From assembly GCA_002418865.1 (NCBI GenBank), contig DIEY01000003.1:31062-95061 (forward strand): 64,000 bases of DNA, in the 5' to 3' direction. Each line of letters opens with the position of its first letter. The first letter of the stretch is position 1. The position numbers were made by a program, and so were the translations under genes. Below are positions 24,303 to 30,806 of this stretch, piece after piece. This stretch comes from Bacteroidales bacterium UBA5762. Its GTDB lineage: Bacteria > Bacteroidota > Bacteroidia > Bacteroidales > TTA-H9. The notes beneath the pieces were generated by a model. It did no database searches. It had not been told where the DNA came from and saw only the letters and a program-made list of their open reading frames with translations.

Positions 24303-24836
24303 ATGGAAAGCTTAGAAAAAATAAAGAAAAGAATAGAAGTTATTCAAGGTGACATTACTCGATTTGAGGGAGATGCCGTAGTCAATGCGGCTAATTCTTC
24401 ATTGAGAGGTGGAGGTGGAGTAGATGGTGCAATTCATAGGGCTGCTGGGCCCCTTTTGCTCGAGGCTTGCAAAAAATTTGATGGTTGTCCAACAGGTGAT
24501 GCAGTATTAACACCTGGTTATAATTTAAAAGCGCAATGGGTGATACATACCGTAGGACCTATTTGGAGAGGTGGCAACCACGATGAAGCTAATCTTTTGG
24601 CATCGTGTTATCTGAAATGTTTAAGCCTGAGTTTCGAAAACAAATTCAGGCAGGTAGCTTTCCCCAATATTAGTACAGGAATTTATGGTTTCCCCAAAAA
24701 AGATGCAGCCCAAATTGCCATCAATACGGTTACACAATTCTTGCAATCGCATGAGTTTCCGCAAGAAGTCATCTTTGTGTGCTATGATACAGAGAATTAC
24801 TCGATTTACCGAGAAATGCTATCTTCAATTTTCTAA
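24303..24836 (+). CDS. ymdB: Macro-domain protein (O-acetyl-ADP-ribose deacetylase, YmdB-like)
   Basis: Motifs: GDITRFEGDAVVNAAN, GGGGVDGAIHRAAG and ISTGIYGFP. Confidence 0.87.
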   Translation: MESLEKIKKRIEVIQGDITRFEGDAVVNAANSSLRGGGGVDGAIHRAAGPLLLEACKKFDGCPTGDAVLTPGYNLKAQWVIHTVGPIWRGGNHDEANLLASCYLKCLSLSFENKFRQVAFPNISTGIYGFPKKDAAQIAINTVTQFLQSHEFPQEVIFVCYDTENYSIYREMLSSIF

Positions 24837-26140
24837 ATACCGATTTCCATTGCTTTTTTAGAAGATTTTTGAGGATTCCATGCATCACGGTATGATGATT
24901 TGAACAATATCTCCCTCAAATAAGCGATTGTTCTTACAGTCCTCATGTAATAACCATTATAAATCATCATGAGTGGAATATACATAAATAACTTCCATTC
25001 CTGGCTTCTACGTTCGGAAAGCATCATTGCCAAAGTAAACTGAAAAGTCGAACCTATGCCATAAATAATGAATTTGAGGGGAATAAGAAAGAGCAAAAAG
25101 TCAAAGTTGGTAACAAGAAGATTTATTGCATAAATCCACCAGAAAAAATCAAGAATTAAATTATAGAAAATATTTTCCCACAGCGCAAAGAAGTTAATGA
25201 ACGAAAAATTAGCCTGAGGCAAATAAATATCATGGTGTTTGCGGAGTCGAAAACGAATCAAAGATTTAGACCAACGCATACGCTGGCGTGAGAGTGCCGA
25301 GAAAGACGATGGAACGTTGGTAAGACTAACGGCATTGGCTGCAAAACGAATTTTAAAATCGAGTTTACGCATTTTAATGGTCAAGTCACCATCTAAACCT
25401 GGGCCTACGTCCCATCCGCCAAGTCGTAAGAGAACATCTCTTCTGAAAGCTCCAAAAGCCCCCGATATGATACGATATATTCCCAAATAAGAAGTCACAA
25501 CTCTCCCCACGCTAATTGTTTGAAGATATTCTATAGCCTGTAAACTTGTAGCAATACTTTCATGGATGTTTCTAACCTTTACATTGCCTCCCACTCCTCC
25601 TACATTATCTTCCATATAAAATGGAACAAGTATATTTTCAATTGCATTACGATCGAAAGAAGTATCGGCATCTACATGAATGACAAATTTTCCATGCGCA
25701 TATCTCAGTCCTAAATTAGCTGCACTGGCCTTTCCTCCCCTTATATCATTCCGTAAATAAACATCTATGAGTCCATTTTCCTTTAAATCCCTACATATCA
25801 GGTAAGTATCATCATCCGAAGCATCGTCTACGATGATAAATTCAAGATTAGTATAGGTTTGTTCCCTAAGGCCATTAACCAGTTTAAAAATATGTTGCCC
25901 TTCATTTCTTCCTGGTACAATGATAGAGACTAAGGGGTTCTCGGCTAAAAGTTCATAACGGGCGCGTTTGAAATTCAACTTGTTTCTTCGGCTTTGGAAC
26001 AGAATAATCCCTAAAATAATAACATCCAGTATTACAAAACGTGGGGCTTCAATATAGAAGTAATACCAAAATAAATTGATAATTCTAATCAACCCTTCAT
26101 GTTCAATACTATAAAAGAAATTATCCCAAAATGTAAACAT
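24833..26140 (-). CDS. Processive family-2 glycosyltransferase (PgaC/NodC/cellulose-synthase-like polysaccharide synthase)
   Basis: N-terminal TM helices, then SIIVPGRNEG, IVDDASDDD (aa 103-111), GGKASAANLG, HVDADT (DxD, aa 155-160), GLDGDLT (aa 248-254) and QRMRW (QxxRW, aa 286-290), followed by 3-4 C-terminal TM helices. Confidence 0.85.
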   Translation of the reverse strand: MFTFWDNFFYSIEHEGLIRIINLFWYYFYIEAPRFVILDVIILGIILFQSRRNKLNFKRARYELLAENPLVSIIVPGRNEGQHIFKLVNGLREQTYTNLEFIIVDDASDDDTYLICRDLKENGLIDVYLRNDIRGGKASAANLGLRYAHGKFVIHVDADTSFDRNAIENILVPFYMEDNVGGVGGNVKVRNIHESIATSLQAIEYLQTISVGRVVTSYLGIYRIISGAFGAFRRDVLLRLGGWDVGPGLDGDLTIKMRKLDFKIRFAANAVSLTNVPSSFSALSRQRMRWSKSLIRFRLRKHHDIYLPQANFSFINFFALWENIFYNLILDFFWWIYAINLLVTNFDFLLFLIPLKFIIYGIGSTFQFTLAMMLSERRSQEWKLFMYIPLMMIYNGYYMRTVRTIAYLREILFKSSYRDAWNPQKSSKKAMEIGI

Positions 26141-26157: not shown

Positions 26158-27543
26158 TTATAACATGATGAGTTCGCCAATGATTTCGTTATGACTTTTA
26201 TACCCAGAAATAGGAATGGCTTTTATAATAAGGTTTATATGAATGTTTGGTAAACTACTTAAAAGAAGTTTTAAAAGCGATTGCCTTATATTTTCGAGCA
26301 CATTATGCAGCCGGGCTGGTTCGCTATCGGGTGAAATGATTAAAAATGTATTGTTGTTAATAAACGAAAGGATATCCGTAGACGTGGTTGCATTTTTCAT
26401 AAAATCGGCAATTTCAGTAACAAGTTTGCTATAACCTACCCCTAATTTATGCCTATCTGCATCGGCTAACGACAATATCAGACTTCCCGCCGAACTCAGG
26501 CGATTGTTATTTTTTGCCCTTTCGATTTCATATTTAAGGAAAATGTTGAAAGTTGTAAATGTAATAAATCCAGGTAGATCTAATTCTTCTTTTATTTCCT
26601 TTCCAAAACCATGTAAGGCGGTTTCTTCACCAATAGGTGTAAGTTCGAAGCTATAAATCTGCTTATCGATCAATGTTTCAACCGGATTATGTTTTTGACA
26701 CGAAAAGCAAAATGCTTCCATATTAGGTTCTTGAAAAGTATTCAAACAATTTCTACAGGTATAAACCAAAGAAGGTTTATCATAATCTACCCCTATATGT
26801 CTGAGCATACGGTTACATTTTGGACAAACCAAATAATCCCCACTGTGAAAATCATGCTCGGGCCCCACATAAGCGCATACAAAATGATGTATAAGGTTTT
26901 CGGTTACTAAATCTCCCGAACCACATTTTGGGCAAGTTTCTCTATAATTGATGAAACTCGAATAACAATTGCTGCATAAGTGTAAGCGATCGACAAACTT
27001 TGGCTTGAAAAATTCCCGATTAATCAAGTCATCTGTTAAACGAAACATATCCGAAATGTTCCCATTATTATAATGTTCGGAAAGAATAGGATAACTATAG
27101 CCTAAGCTCGAATGCGGGTCAACAATAGGCTGAAGTTTAATTTCTCTTGTATATAAATATCTCATGATCTTTGTCATGATTCTAATATCAGGTGTATCCG
27201 AATCAACAGTAGTCAGATTAGCCTGACGCGATTTTAGTTTATCAATTTTTGTAATAATTCCTTCAACCTGGAGAGACGAAATAATCCCATCGCTCATAGA
27301 TTCAACCTTTGGATCAATATTTTTTTCGATAGAATATATGAATATAGGGATTAAATAAATTGAGCCAATAAAGGAGGATCTGCACTGACGCAAGAGCTTC
27401 AAGCATCCTGTAGCATCGGTATAATCAAGAATCAAAGCATCATATAAAGCAAGCTGCCGAATATCAGATTCTTCGTAGAGAGTTATATAGGCTATTTCTC
27501 TATTATAAATGTTGGGTAGTTTAGTAATTCTTAGCTCAGCCAT
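26158..27543 (-). CDS. Cytoplasmic multi-CxxC zinc-ribbon protein with a degenerate GGDEF-like C-terminal domain (putative regulator of the adjacent synthase)
   Basis: Five CxxC pairs lie within aa 190-282 (CSNC, CPKC, CPKC, CRNC, CFSC). Residues 322-450 align by eye to a GGDEF fold, with NNNTF in place of GGDEF and TSTD in place of the RxxD I-site. There is no TM segment. Gaps to the neighbouring genes are 17 and 31 nt. Confidence 0.6.
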   Translation of the reverse strand: MAELRITKLPNIYNREIAYITLYEESDIRQLALYDALILDYTDATGCLKLLRQCRSSFIGSIYLIPIFIYSIEKNIDPKVESMSDGIISSLQVEGIITKIDKLKSRQANLTTVDSDTPDIRIMTKIMRYLYTREIKLQPIVDPHSSLGYSYPILSEHYNNGNISDMFRLTDDLINREFFKPKFVDRLHLCSNCYSSFINYRETCPKCGSGDLVTENLIHHFVCAYVGPEHDFHSGDYLVCPKCNRMLRHIGVDYDKPSLVYTCRNCLNTFQEPNMEAFCFSCQKHNPVETLIDKQIYSFELTPIGEETALHGFGKEIKEELDLPGFITFTTFNIFLKYEIERAKNNNRLSSAGSLILSLADADRHKLGVGYSKLVTEIADFMKNATTSTDILSFINNNTFLIISPDSEPARLHNVLENIRQSLLKLLLSSLPNIHINLIIKAIPISGYKSHNEIIGELIML

Positions 27544-27574: not shown

Positions 27575-28645
27575 CTATAATTTAGAGATGGTTAATTTTA
27601 CCGTAAACTGGTAATAAGTAATCCATCGTACGCGCTCCAGTTCATCAAAAGGATAAACTTCAGCAATTACAGTCCTTTGATTTTTCCCTCTTATGGCTCT
27701 AAATTCTTCAGGTACTTCTTCTGTAATTAAATATATATCCTTGATGATTCCTTTACTACGAGAACCATCCATAAAACTTAGTTCAACTATATCGTTCAAC
27801 CTGAAATACTCAAGATTCTCCTGAGGAATGTAAGCCTTAATAAAGATTTTATCTAAATTGCTAATGAATAATGCAGCTTCCTTCTTATAAGTTATCCCTT
27901 TGAGTGGGGTATTAATTTTAGATATGATACCATTTACGGGTGAAATGTAGTAATAATCTATTCTTTGTTGACCACCGGCTCCCATAGAACTTCCACTTAT
28001 ACTTACATTAGCCGATAATTGCTGCTTCTGTAATTCTTCTAATTGCCTCAAATAAATATAAAGCTGAGAAAGTTCCTGATTCGATTTCGTTAAATCAATA
28101 CGATAGTCATCGAGTAACATTTTTTGCTGTTTCAGTACTACAGGAGGATACACATCGAGGTAAACTTCCAATTTCATTTTCTCAATCAAATCCTGCGTTT
28201 TACTAATTCTTTGTTTTACATCAGAGATATCAATTTGCTTTAACTGTATATTTCGCTTGGTAAGGCTAATTTCGCGCAAGAGCCAATTGCTCGTACCCTC
28301 TCCATCACTCAACGAAATAGTTGCATTTAGTTCATTATCATCATCGAAAAATTCAGTTCTGTATCTGAACAAAGTATCCCCAGCTTTTACCGTATCCCCC
28401 TCATTAACAAAATATTCCATAATCTTCATGTCATTCATCTCCATTACATCAAAACGACCCGTAATGACTTCACCCAAAGCCGAAGCAGATACATTACGGC
28501 GAATTAAATAAATGATAAGGCTCGTAATAAGCAAAATAAAGATAATCAAATAGATAATTCTATCTATATTGCTTCTTCTGCGGGGTTGCTCTTCCTTAAT
28601 CCCCGTTATTACACTCGCCTTATTTTGAAATTTAAACTGCTTCAC
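27575..28645 (-). CDS. HlyD-family periplasmic adaptor (membrane-fusion protein)
   Basis: One N-terminal TM helix (IIYLIIFILLITSLIIYLI), a lipoyl-like hairpin (VNEGDTVKAGDTLFRY ... SPVNGIISKI), a long coiled coil between them and a C-terminal beta-barrel. Confidence 0.8.
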   Translation of the reverse strand: MKQFKFQNKASVITGIKEEQPRRRSNIDRIIYLIIFILLITSLIIYLIRRNVSASALGEVITGRFDVMEMNDMKIMEYFVNEGDTVKAGDTLFRYRTEFFDDDNELNATISLSDGEGTSNWLLREISLTKRNIQLKQIDISDVKQRISKTQDLIEKMKLEVYLDVYPPVVLKQQKMLLDDYRIDLTKSNQELSQLYIYLRQLEELQKQQLSANVSISGSSMGAGGQQRIDYYYISPVNGIISKINTPLKGITYKKEAALFISNLDKIFIKAYIPQENLEYFRLNDIVELSFMDGSRSKGIIKDIYLITEEVPEEFRAIRGKNQRTVIAEVYPFDELERVRWITYYQFTVKLTISKL

Positions 28646-28679: not shown

Positions 28680-30806
28680 TTATTGAACTTTATTAATCGA
28701 TCGTGCATCATTCTCAAGTAATCTTCTTAAATCATGTATCGCTATTTCATTGATTCCCAATTTAATTATGATTTGATTGATGAAATTCTCCAACATAAGA
28801 CGATCAGTAAAATCATTTGGACTTAAAACTATTACAGTCTTGTCCTTGCTTATTTCCATTTCTTCTGAAAGTTTGCCTTCTACATAAGCAATATCAGGAT
28901 GCTCGTAGGCCATAACAAAAACCTTATCACTTAATCCGTAGATCATAGGTAAATAAGCTTCGGGATAAAAAACAGGAATGGAGACACTCAGCTCTAATTG
29001 ATGCTCATCGCAATACTGCCTGGCCGCATTCAACAAATCGAGATAAGCACCCATGCTGGCTTCCTGATTGGTTTTATATTGTGTAAGCGTATGAGGCTCA
29101 ATATCGAGATGTATGCCTTGTAAAACAACTTGCTGATATTTTCCCAATAATTCGAGAAGTGCTTCCTTGCCCTTGTCCAAAAGACTATTGTGCCCTATAA
29201 GCAAATGAACTTTAATATGTTGGCCGTTGCATTTAAAAACAAAATCTTGAAGTTTTGCAATATCGCTCTCCTGAGCTGAAACCAAGACTTCACTAATTCC
29301 ATTATTTTTAAGGTATGCTATAATGTGTTCATTTGTAACTTTTTTAAACTGTTCTGACCAGATATAAATGTATCTGTATCCATTGTATTTTATGCCCATT
29401 TCCTCAGGATTGAATACGGTAATAAAATCGTTAGGATTATCGGTATCAAGGTAAGTGAAAATCTTTAACAATTTCAAATACATATCTTTTTTCAAATCCA
29501 CGAGTTCAATTTCAACGGCCAATTTTTCATCCAGAATTTGCATGACACGGAGCGGGCTATAAGCTTCATCTTCGAAGTCACTCATAACGATTTCTTTTCT
29601 AAGTCGTTCTTCAATTAGTAACTTTTTGAAATAGAAAGAGGTAAATTGCATTTTCTTGAATTGAAATTCATAGTAATGATTGAGCAATTCATTTGCAGAG
29701 GCGAAATTTTCTATATCTTGTTCATTTTCTACTATCTGTAAACGAGCATCTATTTCTTTTGCTGAACTGCTACCAAACTTAATGGGCGCACTTGCAGCCA
29801 AACCTACCGAAGCATAATTTCTGAAATGAGAAGGTGTAGGCTGCATGATATTATAACGAAAAAATGGTCTGACTACGAAATCATTCCACCGCCAATGTTC
29901 GGCCTTATATCTTTCGAGCTGCAAAGCCTTTGCCTCTTCATGCATTCCCGATTGATTGAATAGGCTTATCATCTTTTCTGGGTCAATATCAAAAACCGGC
30001 AAGTAAGCATCGCGGAATGTCTCATCCATAAAAATTTCAGGAATGCCTTCCCTGAGTTTAGTATTAAAATATACTTTGTTATCATTAATTAATGCTTCGA
30101 GCTCAGCTGCCTTACTTTGAAGTTCAAGTAGCTGCTCCCAAGAAGCAATCCTTAGCAAATACATTTGTTGGGCAATACGAAGCTGCTCATCCACTACTTG
30201 TTTCCTATGTGCTAATAATAAAGCCTTCTCACGCTTGAAAAGATATGTAATATAAGCATATAAGTAAAGATAAGAGGTTTGTTTAGTTTGCAATTTCTGT
30301 TCTAATAAAGCTAAATCTCTTTGTTTTTCAATAGCCTTGACCTTGGATTTGTTGGCAAATAAACCGCTGTTGAGCAAATCCCATTCTATTCCGAGATACA
30401 ATCTGCGAACGTAGGAAATATCTTCATCAGTAATAACCCCTGTCTTAAAATTCTCCTGATAGTTAGTTACAAACCTTAAACCAGGGTCGGAACGATAATT
30501 CTTTATCTGACTTTCGTAGAGTTCGATAAATGCGTCTGATTGATTCATTAGGCTATAATCGTTTGCAAATAACATATGTAATAAAGCAGTATCACTTATC
30601 ATTTTTTGAGGTACTACCTGATTCAACTCTGTTAGTAAAAATGAATCAACCTGATAAGCTATTTGTTTTAGGCTCAAACTGTCAATGTTCTTTATGGGAT
30701 ACTTTAGTTTCTGAGCAAGTGTAAACCCCTCTGGGAACAACAAAATAACAGTAGCAATGAAAATTATCTTAAATAAATATTTCAATATATTAATTGGTAT
30801 ATGCAT
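28680..30806 (-). CDS. Fusion protein: TolC/OEP-like outer-membrane-factor N-terminal half plus a C-terminal (beta/alpha)8 glycoside-hydrolase-like domain
   Basis: A signal-like N-terminus ends in LAQ. Residues 40-460 alternate short amphipathic beta segments (GLRFVTNYQENF, LYLGIEWDLL, ASVGLAASAPI) with long heptad helices, as outer-membrane factors do. Residues ~475-708 show eight hydrophobic strand / helix repeats, with GIHLDIEP at the end of strand 4. Confidence 0.55.
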   Translation of the reverse strand: MHIPINILKYLFKIIFIATVILLFPEGFTLAQKLKYPIKNIDSLSLKQIAYQVDSFLLTELNQVVPQKMISDTALLHMLFANDYSLMNQSDAFIELYESQIKNYRSDPGLRFVTNYQENFKTGVITDEDISYVRRLYLGIEWDLLNSGLFANKSKVKAIEKQRDLALLEQKLQTKQTSYLYLYAYITYLFKREKALLLAHRKQVVDEQLRIAQQMYLLRIASWEQLLELQSKAAELEALINDNKVYFNTKLREGIPEIFMDETFRDAYLPVFDIDPEKMISLFNQSGMHEEAKALQLERYKAEHWRWNDFVVRPFFRYNIMQPTPSHFRNYASVGLAASAPIKFGSSSAKEIDARLQIVENEQDIENFASANELLNHYYEFQFKKMQFTSFYFKKLLIEERLRKEIVMSDFEDEAYSPLRVMQILDEKLAVEIELVDLKKDMYLKLLKIFTYLDTDNPNDFITVFNPEEMGIKYNGYRYIYIWSEQFKKVTNEHIIAYLKNNGISEVLVSAQESDIAKLQDFVFKCNGQHIKVHLLIGHNSLLDKGKEALLELLGKYQQVVLQGIHLDIEPHTLTQYKTNQEASMGAYLDLLNAARQYCDEHQLELSVSIPVFYPEAYLPMIYGLSDKVFVMAYEHPDIAYVEGKLSEEMEISKDKTVIVLSPNDFTDRLMLENFINQIIIKLGINEIAIHDLRRLLENDARSINKVQ

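What the first reader, a model, noticed from the sequence alone, without database searches (positions are those of the whole stretch)
28680..29384. C-terminal (beta/alpha)8-like domain with a GH18-type D-x-E motif, fused to an outer-membrane-factor-like protein
Residues ~475-708 show eight regularly spaced hydrophobic strands: YIYIWS, EVLVSA, KVHLLIG, GIHLDIEP, ELSVSIP, KVFVMAYE, TVIVLSP and EIAIHDL. Amphipathic helices separate them, which is the pattern of a TIM barrel. Strand 4 ends in QGIHLDIEP, resembling the GH18/GH20-type DGxDxDWE block and keeping the D-x-E pair (D568, E570). Those enzymes use that pair for substrate-assisted cleavage of N-acetylhexosamine polymers. Many EPS systems pair a synthase with a periplasmic hydrolase or lyase (BcsZ, PgaB, PelA, AlgL). 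Fusing such a domain to the putative outer-membrane channel would be new. It also hints that the polymer contains GlcNAc or GalNAc, which would fit a PgaC/NodC-like synthase. That last step is speculative.
Basis: inference. Interest (0 to 1): 0.65.

Follow-up and report, generated by a model that had tools for sequence, protein, structure and literature searches.

The report
Chitinase-like barrel fused to TolC-type channel
The tail of an outer-membrane exit-duct protein is a compact enzyme barrel distantly related to chitinases, with its catalytic residues conserved; it probably trims the sugar polymer that a conserved four-gene export machine in Bacteroidota makes, and this fusion has not been described before.

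Summary
Residues 465-708 of the 708-aa ORF (28680-30806, minus strand) fold into a confident (beta/alpha)8 barrel (pLDDT 93.8).

D568 and E570 sit just after strand 4 and are kept in 99% of 336 distinct homologous domains. H566, M632 and Y634 are kept equally often.

No Pfam or NCBIfam model covers the domain. Profile-profile comparison links it specifically to GH18 (91% probability, E 1e-6). Controls were GH114 21%, GH20 8%, GHL10 3%, and GH25 and PgaB about 0. The DxE and M-x-Y-E motifs align with the GH18 catalytic motifs, most like SleL/YaaH.

The N-terminal 464 residues are a genuine TolC-type protomer, so the barrel hangs in the periplasm at the equatorial domain.

All 80 related genomic loci keep the same gene order wherever the contig reaches: OMF-barrel, HlyD-like adaptor, TackOD1 protein, PgaC-like GT2. 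A sister cassette that gains a TviB-like UDP-GlcNAc dehydrogenase lacks the barrel.

Best reading: a tethered periplasmic hydrolase for an N-acetylhexosamine exopolysaccharide, a new variant of the tripartite synthase-adaptor-TolC systems. Enzyme activity and substrate are untested.

The parts
28680..30806 (-). Complete 708-aa ORF: signal peptide, TolC-type outer-membrane factor (residues ~1-464), and C-terminal (beta/alpha)8 barrel (465-708)
   Evidence: ORF list and translation. Full-length AF2 model, pLDDT 86.7. Foldseek matches TolC, CusC and OprM at E about 1e-12.
29415..30806 (-). TolC-type OMF protomer: two beta-hairpins (residues 110-142 and 311-339) and four long helices (149-217, 223-254, 347-410, 418-452), ending at the equatorial domain
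   Evidence: Pfam OEP PF02321 scores 29.1 bits against a cut-off of 22. DSSP of the AF2 model. Foldseek hits 7ng9 at 1.8e-12 and 1ek9 at 1.2e-11.
28683..29414 (-). C-terminal (beta/alpha)8 barrel, residues 465-708 (barrel proper 477-706); a divergent GH18-like domain that no Pfam or NCBIfam model covers
   Evidence: AF2 pLDDT 93.8, pTM 0.91, eight beta/alpha units. Foldseek finds TIM barrels, with GH18 giving the best TMq of 0.64-0.66. hhalign to GH18 gives 91%. No model passes its cut-off.
29091..29111 (-). Strand-4 catalytic motif H566-L-D568-I-E570-P-H572
   Evidence: Translation. H566, D568 and E570 are each 99% conserved and P571 98% in 336 distinct domains. The motif aligns on the GH18 D-x-D-x-E block and on IHFDFE of SleL.
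28902..28913 (-). Strand-6 motif M632-A-Y634-E635, the counterpart of GH18 M-x-Y-D
   Evidence: Translation. M632 99%, Y634 99%, E635 81%. It aligns on MTYD of GH18 and MTYE of SleL.
27575..28645 (-). HlyD-like periplasmic adaptor (membrane fusion protein), 356 aa
   Evidence: Pfam HlyD_D23 E 1.5e-6, just below its cut-off; TIGR01843 E 4.4e-6. It lies immediately downstream of the OMF-barrel gene in 77 of 80 related loci.
26158..27543 (-). TackOD1 zinc-ribbon protein with a degenerate GGDEF-like C-terminus, 461 aa
   Evidence: Pfam PF18551 E 2.1e-56. Present in the same position in 74 of 80 loci.
24833..26140 (-). Membrane-embedded family-2 glycosyltransferase, PgaC/NodC-like synthase, 435 aa
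   Evidence: PF00535 E 1.1e-23. TIGR03937 PgaC_IcaA E 2.2e-44, below its equivalog cut-off. 28% identical to E. coli PgaC, E 2e-28. The most conserved cassette member, 50-74% identity.

Best explanation
Fold and family. The last ~240 residues form a compact (beta/alpha)8 barrel. It is a divergent offshoot of the GH18 (chitinase-like) superfamily. It keeps the strand-4 Asp-x-Glu pair, with His in place of the upstream Asp as in the spore-cortex GH18 enzyme SleL. It also keeps the strand-6 Met-x-Tyr-Glu motif.

Position. The barrel is covalently attached to the C-terminus of a TolC-type outer-membrane factor. That C-terminus ends at the equatorial domain. On the assumption that this OMF trimerises like TolC (not tested here), three barrels would hang in the periplasm around the trimeric duct.

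Gene context. The gene is the first of a strictly conserved four-gene module: OMF-barrel, HlyD-like adaptor, TackOD1/pseudo-GGDEF protein, and a PgaC/NodC-like processive GT2. The module looks like a tripartite synthase-adaptor-TolC exopolysaccharide secretion system.

Proposed mechanism. The barrel is a retaining, substrate-assisted endo-beta-N-acetylhexosaminidase. E570 would act as acid/base, and D568 and Y634 would position the C2-acetamido group. It would trim, release or clear the HexNAc polymer made by the GT2. This is the role played by the separate enzymes BcsZ, PgaB-GH153, PelA, AlgL and XcsC in other synthase-dependent systems.

Status of each step. Shown here: the fold, residue conservation, remote GH18 homology, TolC fold, fusion topology and synteny. 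Inferred: catalysis, the HexNAc substrate and the physiological role.
For: - Fold: AF2 pLDDT 93.8, eight beta/alpha units.
- Active-site face: every position conserved at 89% or more lies at or just after the C-terminal end of a beta-strand, the canonical TIM-barrel active-site face. These are Y481 and W483 (b1), S510 (b2), N540 (b3), H566/D568/E570/P571 (b4), S609/P611 (b5), M632/Y634 (b6), D665/F666 (b7) and H691/D692 (b8).
- Homology: hhalign of 89 domains against 12 Bacteroidota GH18 sequences gives 91% probability and E 1.1e-6, with motif-on-motif alignment. Controls: GH114 21%, GH20 7.8%, GHL10 3.4%, GH25 0.1%, PgaB 0.2%.
- PDB profile search: SleL (GH18) is second best, with IHFDFE/MTYE aligned to IHLDIE/MAYE.
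- Direct family hits: Pfam GH18 E 0.0027 on the domain and 1.5e-5 on one homologue. UniRef names homologue P0298 'GH18 domain-containing protein'.
- TolC fold.
- Synteny: 80 of 80 loci keep the gene order wherever the contig is long enough.
- Substrate hint: the GT2 is PgaC-like.
- Comparative evidence: in five sister cassettes the GT2 is 54-55% identical, a TviB-like UDP-GlcNAc 6-dehydrogenase (E 1.8e-140) and a DUF4114 lipoprotein are inserted, and the OMF lacks the barrel. The barrel therefore tracks polymer chemistry rather than the duct itself.
- Precedent for tripartite EPS export: BgsAB-TolC (PMC13438883) and XcsAB-TolC with the endoglucanase XcsC (PMC12430437).
Against: - No activity data exist.
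- The domain fails the Pfam GH18 gathering score (17.8 against 29.6 bits), and only 1 of 70 homologues hits GH18 on its own.
- The first two Asp of DxxDxDxE and the SxGG motif are absent.
- Foldseek matches are only generic in strength: E about 1e-6, TM 0.5-0.66, with tryptophan synthase and aldolases ranking alongside GH18.
- If the adaptor-TolC conduit is sealed, as in efflux pumps, a barrel on its outside would not see the polymer in transit.
- Stand-alone secreted copies sit in housekeeping neighbourhoods with no synthase nearby.
- One lineage keeps the cassette with only a vestigial barrel, so the domain is not indispensable.
- E635 is replaced by Gly, Lys or Gln in about 19% of homologues.
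Confidence: 0.6

Rival explanations
1. Peptidoglycan-directed enzyme or anchor. The barrel is a SleL-like N-acetylglucosaminidase, or a peptidoglycan-binding module. It would open or grip the sacculus at the level of the TolC equatorial domain so that the trans-envelope conduit can assemble.
For: The closest characterised GH18 by profile is SleL/YaaH, a cortex peptidoglycan hydrolase that shares the His-x-Asp-x-Glu and M-x-Y-E variants. The attachment point is the equatorial domain, part-way down the periplasmic helical barrel. From published work I recall that the peptidoglycan lies near this level; this was not tested here. Stand-alone secreted copies lie among housekeeping genes rather than EPS genes.
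Against: All 80 genomic loci retrieved with the barrel as query carry it fused to an OMF inside this synthase cassette; no survey of other efflux or type I secretion OMFs was run. It is lost exactly where the cassette gains a UDP-GlcNAc dehydrogenase and a different lipoprotein, while the OMF and adaptor stay. That pattern is hard to explain if its substrate were the cell wall. The cassette has no other glycosidase to fill the role that synthase-dependent systems normally include.
Confidence: 0.12
2. Non-catalytic carbohydrate-binding or docking module. Like chitinase-like lectins, or like PgaB's C-terminal domain as first described, it would hold the nascent chain or the adaptor at the duct without cutting.
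For: Several GH18 signature residues are missing (first two Asp, SxGG). Some homologues carry a second, clearly degenerate barrel, for example P0100 and P0207 with D-to-N/Q changes or loss of the Glu. One lineage keeps only a remnant.
Against: The acid/base Glu (99%), its partner Asp (99%) and the strand-6 Tyr (99%) are the most conserved residues of the family. Chitinase-like lectins characteristically lose this Glu (established knowledge, not tested here). The His variant at the upstream Asp position also occurs in SleL, which I recall from the literature to be an active GH18 N-acetylglucosaminidase (not checked here).
Confidence: 0.13
3. A glycosidase of another TIM-barrel lineage or chemistry. 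Examples are a GH114/GH135/GH166-like endo-alpha-1,4-(N-acetyl)galactosaminidase, or the uncharacterised family of the Cellulomonas fimi protein deposited as 'putative GH97'. In this reading the GH18 resemblance is convergent or too remote to predict mechanism.
For: The best PDB sequence hit is 10yv_A, 'Putative GH97 from Cellulomonas fimi' (E 3.3e-7, LDVEPWTL aligned to LDIEPHTL). One homologue hits Spherulin4 (GH135) at E 0.0017. hhalign to GH114 is weak but not zero, 21%. In the full-length Foldseek search the first non-OMF hit is PgaB (E 2.1e-5).
Against: GH18 scores far above GH114, GH20, GHL10, GH25 and PgaB in the same test, and aligns both catalytic motifs in register. The 275-aa C. 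fimi protein is too short to be a canonical GH97 (recalled length of GH97 enzymes, not tested here), and it keeps the same D-x-E-P motif, so it is more likely a member of this same GH18-like family. GH135 and GHL13 control sets could not be built.
Confidence: 0.1

Closest known systems
GH18 chitinase-like hydrolases, especially SleL/YaaH-type peptidoglycan N-acetylglucosaminidases (PDB 4s3k)
   Same: (beta/alpha)8 barrel. Asp-x-Glu directly after strand 4, with His at the upstream Asp position (IHFDFE in SleL, IHLDIE here). M-x-Y-E after strand 6. hhalign 91%, E 1.1e-6.
   Different: About 230 residues with no alpha+beta insertion domain and no LysM or CBM modules. No SxGG motif, and the first Asp of DxxDxDxE is absent. 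Below the Pfam GH18 threshold. Fused to an outer-membrane factor.
PDB 10yv, 'Putative GH97 from Cellulomonas fimi' (275 aa)
   Same: Nearest solved relative by sequence profile (E 3.3e-7), covering strands 2-5 and sharing the LD(V/I)EP(W/H)TL motif.
   Different: A stand-alone actinobacterial protein. No publication was found. Its coordinates were not among the Foldseek matches, so the folds could not be compared. Its function is unknown.
Tripartite synthase-adaptor-TolC exopolysaccharide systems: XcsA/XcsB/TolC with endoglucanase XcsC (cyanobacterial cellulose) and BgsA/BgsB/TolC (rhizobial mixed-linkage glucan)
   Same: A processive GT2 synthase, a HlyD-like adaptor and a TolC-type duct. Xcs also needs a glycosidase (PMC12430437; PMC13438883).
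   Different: Here the OMF is dedicated and encoded in the operon. The glycosidase is fused to it and is GH18-like rather than a cellulase. The regulator slot holds a TackOD1/pseudo-GGDEF protein instead of a PilZ or c-di-GMP-binding synthase tail. The GT2 is PgaC-like rather than BcsA-like.
PgaB (GH153)-PgaA, PelA (GH166)-PelB, BcsZ and AlgL: periplasmic polymer-processing enzymes of synthase-dependent systems
   Same: A periplasmic TIM-barrel or other glycosidase or lyase that acts on the system's own polymer and is held near the outer-membrane exporter. Examples are the PgaA TPR domain modulating PgaB (PMC9384988) and the PgaB hydrolase (PMC5933820).
   Different: Those enzymes are separate proteins docked on TPR-porin exporters. 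There is no detectable sequence relation to PgaB, and structural similarity is only weak.

Membership tests
GH18 (Pfam PF00704, CAZy GH18) | (beta/alpha)8 TIM-barrel catalytic domain | tested here: met
   AF2 pLDDT 93.8 with eight strand-helix units. GH18 structures give the highest query TM-scores, 0.64-0.66.
GH18 (Pfam PF00704, CAZy GH18) | Scores above the curated Pfam gathering threshold | tested here: not met
   17.8 bits against a cut-off of 29.6, E 0.0027. Only 1 of 70 homologues hits PF00704, at E 1.5e-5.
GH18 (Pfam PF00704, CAZy GH18) | Catalytic Asp-x-Glu at the end of strand 4 | tested here: met
   D568 and E570 are each 99% conserved in 336 domains. They align on the GH18 D-x-E.
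GH18 (Pfam PF00704, CAZy GH18) | Full DxxDxDxE signature (both upstream Asp present) | tested here: not met
   The sequence is Q-G-I-H-L-D-I-E. The position of the second Asp is an invariant His (H566, 99%) and the first is not Asp. SleL shows the same His variant.
GH18 (Pfam PF00704, CAZy GH18) | Strand-6 M-x-Y-D motif (Tyr and acid that orient the acetamido group) | tested here: met
   M632 99%, Y634 99%, E635 81% (Glu in place of Asp, as in SleL's MTYE).
GH18 (Pfam PF00704, CAZy GH18) | Strand-3 SxGG motif | tested here: not met
   The strand ends L-L-I-G-H-N. G538 is 86% and N540 91% conserved, with no conserved Ser.
GH18 (Pfam PF00704, CAZy GH18) | Profile-level homology that is specific relative to other TIM-barrel GH families | tested here: met
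   hhalign 91%, E 1.1e-6. Controls: GH114 21%, GH20 7.8%, GHL10 3.4%, GH25 0.1%, PgaB 0.2%.
GH18 (Pfam PF00704, CAZy GH18) | Retaining, substrate-assisted hydrolysis of beta-linked GlcNAc polymers | not testable with these tools
   Requires an enzyme assay.
TolC-type outer-membrane factor (PF02321 OEP) | Pfam OEP above the gathering threshold | tested here: met
   29.1 bits against a cut-off of 22, residues 81-241. 44 of 70 homologues hit OEP.
TolC-type outer-membrane factor (PF02321 OEP) | Protomer with two beta-hairpins and four long helices in a tandem repeat | tested here: met
   DSSP of the full-length model. Foldseek matches TolC, ST50, CusC and OprM at E 1.8e-12 to 1e-9, target TM about 0.6.
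TolC-type outer-membrane factor (PF02321 OEP) | Trimer forming a 12-stranded barrel and a helical tunnel | not testable with these tools
   Only a monomer could be modelled.
Tripartite synthase-adaptor-OMF exopolysaccharide secretion (Xcs/Bgs type) | Membrane-embedded processive GT2 synthase in the same locus | tested here: met
   PF00535 E 1.1e-23, PgaC_IcaA E 2.2e-44. 28% identical to E. coli PgaC. Present in 71 of 80 loci, and missing only where the contig ends.
Tripartite synthase-adaptor-OMF exopolysaccharide secretion (Xcs/Bgs type) | HlyD-type membrane fusion protein in the same locus | tested here: inconclusive
   HlyD_D23 E 1.5e-6 (28.1 bits against a cut-off of 30) and TIGR01843 E 4.4e-6. 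Both are below the curated cut-offs, but all hits agree. Syntenic in 77 of 80 loci.
Tripartite synthase-adaptor-OMF exopolysaccharide secretion (Xcs/Bgs type) | c-di-GMP receptor on the synthase (PilZ or the BgsA C-terminal domain) | tested here: not met
   No PilZ or comparable domain was found on the GT2. A separate TackOD1 protein with a degenerate GGDEF-like tail is present instead.
GH153 (PgaB C-terminal domain, Pfam GHL13) | Sequence or profile similarity to PgaB | tested here: not met
   hhalign of the domain profile against E. coli PgaB gives 0.2% probability. There is only a weak Foldseek match, 4f9j at E 2.1e-5.
GH114 (PF03537) | Profile similarity to GH114 | tested here: not met
   hhalign 21%, E 1e-3, restricted to strands 2-4. 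No Pfam hit.

The most novel reading that the evidence does not exclude
The barrel founds a new glycoside-hydrolase family within the GH18 clan. Its members are built into the TolC-like exit duct and act as the chain-releasing or length-setting step of a self-contained synthesise-export-cut machine. Bacteroidota, and some Desulfuromonadales and Nitrospirae, would use it to secrete a so far undescribed chitin-like or PNAG-like poly-N-acetylhexosamine.
Probability: 0.2. Interest if true: 0.8.

Novelty: new variant of a known kind. Interest (0 to 1): 0.6.

Why it matters
Synthase-dependent exopolysaccharide systems almost always include a periplasmic glycosidase or lyase, and its role (quality control, chain release or export licensing) is still debated. 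Here that enzyme is covalently fixed to a defined point of a TolC-type duct, which limits where it can act.

The module has four genes and is found in at least 328 species' genomes, including cultured strains: Prolixibacter denitrificans DSM 27267, Salibacter halophilus KCTC 52047 and Crocinitomix algicola.

It offers three things:
- a compact model for the recently proposed tripartite route of polysaccharide export;
- a probable new GH18-clan family of about 230 residues that Pfam does not cover;
- a lead to an unknown HexNAc biofilm polymer in Bacteroidota.

Tried and rejected
- Direct family scans of the domain gave nothing above threshold: Pfam and NCBIfam, alone or over 70 homologues.
- A single-sequence PDB search found nothing meaningful.
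- GH25 was considered because it has an 'LDxE' motif. It was rejected: hhalign 0.1%, and the model is a full eight-fold barrel.
GHL10 was rejected at 3.4%.
- GH114 was weak at 21%. PgaB/GH153 was rejected by sequence.
- Control sets for GH135 (Spherulin4) and GHL13 could not be built. Neither family was found in 151 and 201 Bacteroidota genomes respectively.
- My first control alignments were invalid because loci on the minus strand had not been reverse-complemented. They were rebuilt.
- A literature search for the C. fimi 'GH97' structure found no relevant paper.
- The idea that stand-alone copies would sit in equivalent cassettes with a separate OMF was tested and not borne out. Both copies examined lie among housekeeping genes.
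Full report
**What is there.** The minus-strand ORF at 28680-30806 encodes a 708-aa protein with an N-terminal signal peptide. The finding's coordinates, 28680-29384, cover residues 475-708.

I modelled residues 465-708 with AlphaFold2, using an alignment of 88 homologues. The model has mean pLDDT 93.8 and pTM 0.91.

A D-x-E triplet on its own is expected about once by chance in a stretch of this length. It matters here because of where it sits and how well it is conserved.

**Conservation.** Three searches defined the family:
- A word-indexed search found 94 full-length relatives.
- An exhaustive HMMER search of 1.8 billion cluster representatives found 451 clusters.
- A scan of one genome per species found relatives in 328 genomes.

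In 336 distinct domain sequences the most conserved residues are:

| Residue | Conservation |
|---|---|
| H566, D568, E570, P611, M632, Y634 | 99% each |
| P571, F666 | 98% |
| W483, D665 | 97% |
| Y481 | 96% |
| H691 | 94% |
| D692 | 89% |
| E635 | 81% |

Set against the DSSP assignment of the model, every one of these residues lies at or just after the C-terminal end of a beta-strand. That is the face where TIM-barrel enzymes carry their active sites.

**Which family.**
- No Pfam or NCBIfam model reaches its threshold. The best is Pfam GH18 at E 0.0027 (17.8 bits against a cut-off of 29.6) on strands 4-6.
- Of 70 homologues scanned singly, one hits GH18 (1.5e-5) and one hits Spherulin4/GH135 (0.0017).
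- Foldseek against the PDB returns generic TIM barrels at E about 1e-6. GH18 enzymes (SleL 4s3k, Ostrinia chitinases, 7z64) give the highest query TM-scores, 0.64-0.66.

To test specificity I built alignments of GH18, GH114, GH25, GH20 and GHL10 proteins from Bacteroidota genomes and compared them with the domain alignment using hhalign.

| Family | hhalign probability | E-value |
|---|---|---|
| GH18 | 91% | 1.1e-6 |
| GH114 | 21% | 1e-3 |
| GH20 | 7.8% | 4.5e-3 |
| GHL10 | 3.4% | 0.013 |
| GH25 | 0.1% | 0.43 |
| E. coli PgaB (single sequence) | 0.2% | 0.3 |

GH18 itself scores 30% or less against the same controls.

The GH18 alignment places KVHLLIG on the strand-3 K-V-x-x-S-x-GG block, GIHLDIE on DGIDIDWE, LSVSIP on the strand-5 block, and VMAYE on IMTYD.

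A profile search of the PDB gives two notable hits. The first is 10yv_A, 'Putative GH97 from Cellulomonas fimi' (275 aa, E 3.3e-7, LDVEPWTL aligned to LDIEPHTL). The second is the GH18 spore-cortex enzyme SleL/YaaH (E 0.018), whose IHFDFE and MTYE align with IHLDIE and MAYE. The His at the upstream Asp position and the Glu after Tyr are therefore variants already seen in a GH18 enzyme.

UniRef names one homologue 'GH18 domain-containing protein'.

I conclude that the domain is a divergent, minimal relative of GH18 of about 230 residues. It is not a canonical member. It fails the Pfam cut-off, lacks SxGG and lacks the first two Asp of the signature.

**The rest of the protein.** The full-length model (pLDDT 86.7) shows a classical TolC protomer:
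- two beta-hairpins, residues 110-142 and 311-339;
- two long descending helices, 149-217 and 347-410;
- two half-length ascending helices, 223-254 and 418-452;
- short equatorial elements.

Foldseek matches TolC, ST50, CusC, SilC and OprM at E 1.8e-12 to 1e-9, and Pfam OEP passes its threshold. The barrel starts about 25 residues after the last ascending helix, at the equatorial domain. It must therefore be periplasmic, on the outside of the helical tunnel. If this OMF trimerises like TolC, which was not tested, there would be three copies per duct.

**Context.** Downstream on the same strand lie three genes, separated by gaps of tens of bases:
- a HlyD-like adaptor (27575-28645);
- a TackOD1 zinc-ribbon protein with a degenerate GGDEF-like tail (26158-27543; PF18551 E 2e-56);
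- a PgaC/NodC-like GT2 (24833-26140; TIGR03937 E 2e-44; 28% identical to E. coli PgaC).

In the 80 best loci from the species-genome scan, the order OMF-barrel, adaptor, TackOD1, GT2 is kept without exception. A gene is missing only where the contig ends. Most loci are from Bacteroidota, including Salibacter halophilus, Prolixibacter denitrificans, Crocinitomix algicola and Chitinophaga. A few are from Desulfuromonadales, Nitrospirae and Deltaproteobacteria MAGs.

**Variant cassettes.** Searching with the TackOD1 protein in 300 further Bacteroidota genomes found ten more cassettes.
- Four have the fused barrel.
- Five lack it. Between the adaptor and the TackOD1 gene these five carry a TviB-like UDP-GlcNAc C-6 dehydrogenase (E 1.8e-140) and a 650-aa DUF4114/LVIVD lipoprotein.
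- One (L159) has a 536-aa OMF with a remnant of about 120 residues that keeps strands 1-3 and 8 but has lost strands 4-7.

So the barrel goes with one version of the polymer chemistry and is replaced when the sugar precursor changes. This fits a polymer-directed enzyme better than a cell-wall-directed one. The five barrel-less cassettes come from one family, however, and may represent a single evolutionary event.

The TviB-like enzyme next to a GT2 that is 54-55% identical also supports the view that these synthases use UDP-HexNAc-derived donors.

**Observations that do not fit neatly.** Stand-alone copies with signal peptides or lipoprotein signals exist. The two I located lie among housekeeping genes with no synthase nearby. 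Two homologues of about 1000 residues carry two barrels in tandem, the first with degenerate catalytic residues.

**Comparison with known systems.** Tripartite export of a synthase-made polysaccharide through a HlyD-like adaptor and TolC has been proposed twice. One case is cyanobacterial cellulose (XcsA/XcsB/TolC, with the endoglucanase XcsC), described in PMC12430437, which cites Maeda et al. 2018. The other is rhizobial mixed-linkage glucan (BgsA/BgsB/TolC) in PMC13438883.

Periplasmic hydrolases held at the outer-membrane exporter are known for PNAG (PgaB with the PgaA TPR domain; PMC5933820, PMC9384988) and for Pel (PMC12022489).

I found no paper describing an OMF-glycosidase fusion or this cassette. 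'TackOD1' occurs in a single paper, which does not treat it.

**Mechanism proposed.**
- Shown here: the fold, conservation of the putative active site, specific remote homology to GH18, the TolC fold, the periplasmic attachment point and the conserved four-gene module.
- Inferred: E570 is the acid/base, and D568 and Y634 orient a C2-acetamido group for substrate-assisted, retaining cleavage. This follows the established GH18 mechanism, which I give from my own knowledge.
- Also inferred: the substrate is the HexNAc polymer made by the GT2, and the role is trimming, release or clearance of chains in the periplasm.

An open problem is how a barrel outside a sealed adaptor-TolC tunnel would reach the chain. 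Either the conduit is not sealed, or the enzyme deals with chains that escape, as has been proposed for AlgL.

**Rivals.**
- A peptidoglycan-directed SleL-like enzyme at the level of the sacculus (0.12).
- A non-catalytic binding module (0.13).
- A different TIM-barrel chemistry (0.10).

**Verdict.** This is a new variant of a known kind of system, built on an uncharacterised GH18-clan domain family. Interest 0.6.

One planned check could not be done.

Noticed in passing
L154-L158 (e.g. L154:881-9964): Sister cassettes in one Bacteroidota family have an OMF without the barrel. Between the adaptor and the TackOD1 gene they carry a 650-aa DUF4114/LVIVD lipoprotein and a TviB-like UDP-GlcNAc C-6 dehydrogenase (E 1.8e-140). 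This suggests a uronic-acid version of the polymer with a different processing protein.
   Followed up: partly
L159:9895-11505 (minus): A 536-aa OMF in an otherwise complete cassette ends in a remnant of about 120 residues. The remnant keeps strand 1-3-like and strand 8-like segments (..IFEIHDINRLVDID..) but lacks strands 4-7 and all catalytic motifs. This looks like domain decay in one lineage.
   Followed up: partly
P0100 (998 aa), P0207 (996 aa): Homologues with two barrels in tandem after the OMF. The first copy has degenerate catalytic residues (HLNVE in P0100; HFQLG and loss of the Tyr in P0207). It may be a binding-only module.
   Followed up: no
L139:8001-8780; L141:8001-8801: Stand-alone secreted copies of the barrel (259 and 266 aa, with signal peptides) lie among housekeeping genes such as ribosomal protein L19, RuvX, NUDIX and two-component genes. 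No synthase, adaptor or OMF is nearby.
   Followed up: partly
P0305 (400 aa), P0306 (496 aa): Distant homologues (E about 1e-6) keep (M/L)D(L/I)EPH and LMAYE. P0305 ends in a tail that looks like a PEP-CTERM sorting signal (..VPEPPTWMLV..RR..). If so, this branch of the family may be linked to exosortase-type EPS systems.
   Followed up: no
window 26158-27543 (minus): The TackOD1 protein ends in a GGDEF-like domain in which the GGDEF motif reads INNNTF. By eye I saw no RxxD I-site motif in front of it. It is probably neither a cyclase nor a classical I-site c-di-GMP receptor (sequence; weak DgcR and SiaD hits).
   Followed up: no
G000:C23:46428-47135 (another contig of the same genome): The genome also encodes one canonical GH18 domain (PF00704, E 3.5e-37) in a 593-aa frame. 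The barrel studied here is therefore not the organism's only GH18-type protein.
   Followed up: no
G007:C119:7889-9949: The orthologue in one related genome has a single in-frame TGA. This could be a pseudogene or a sequencing error.
   Followed up: no
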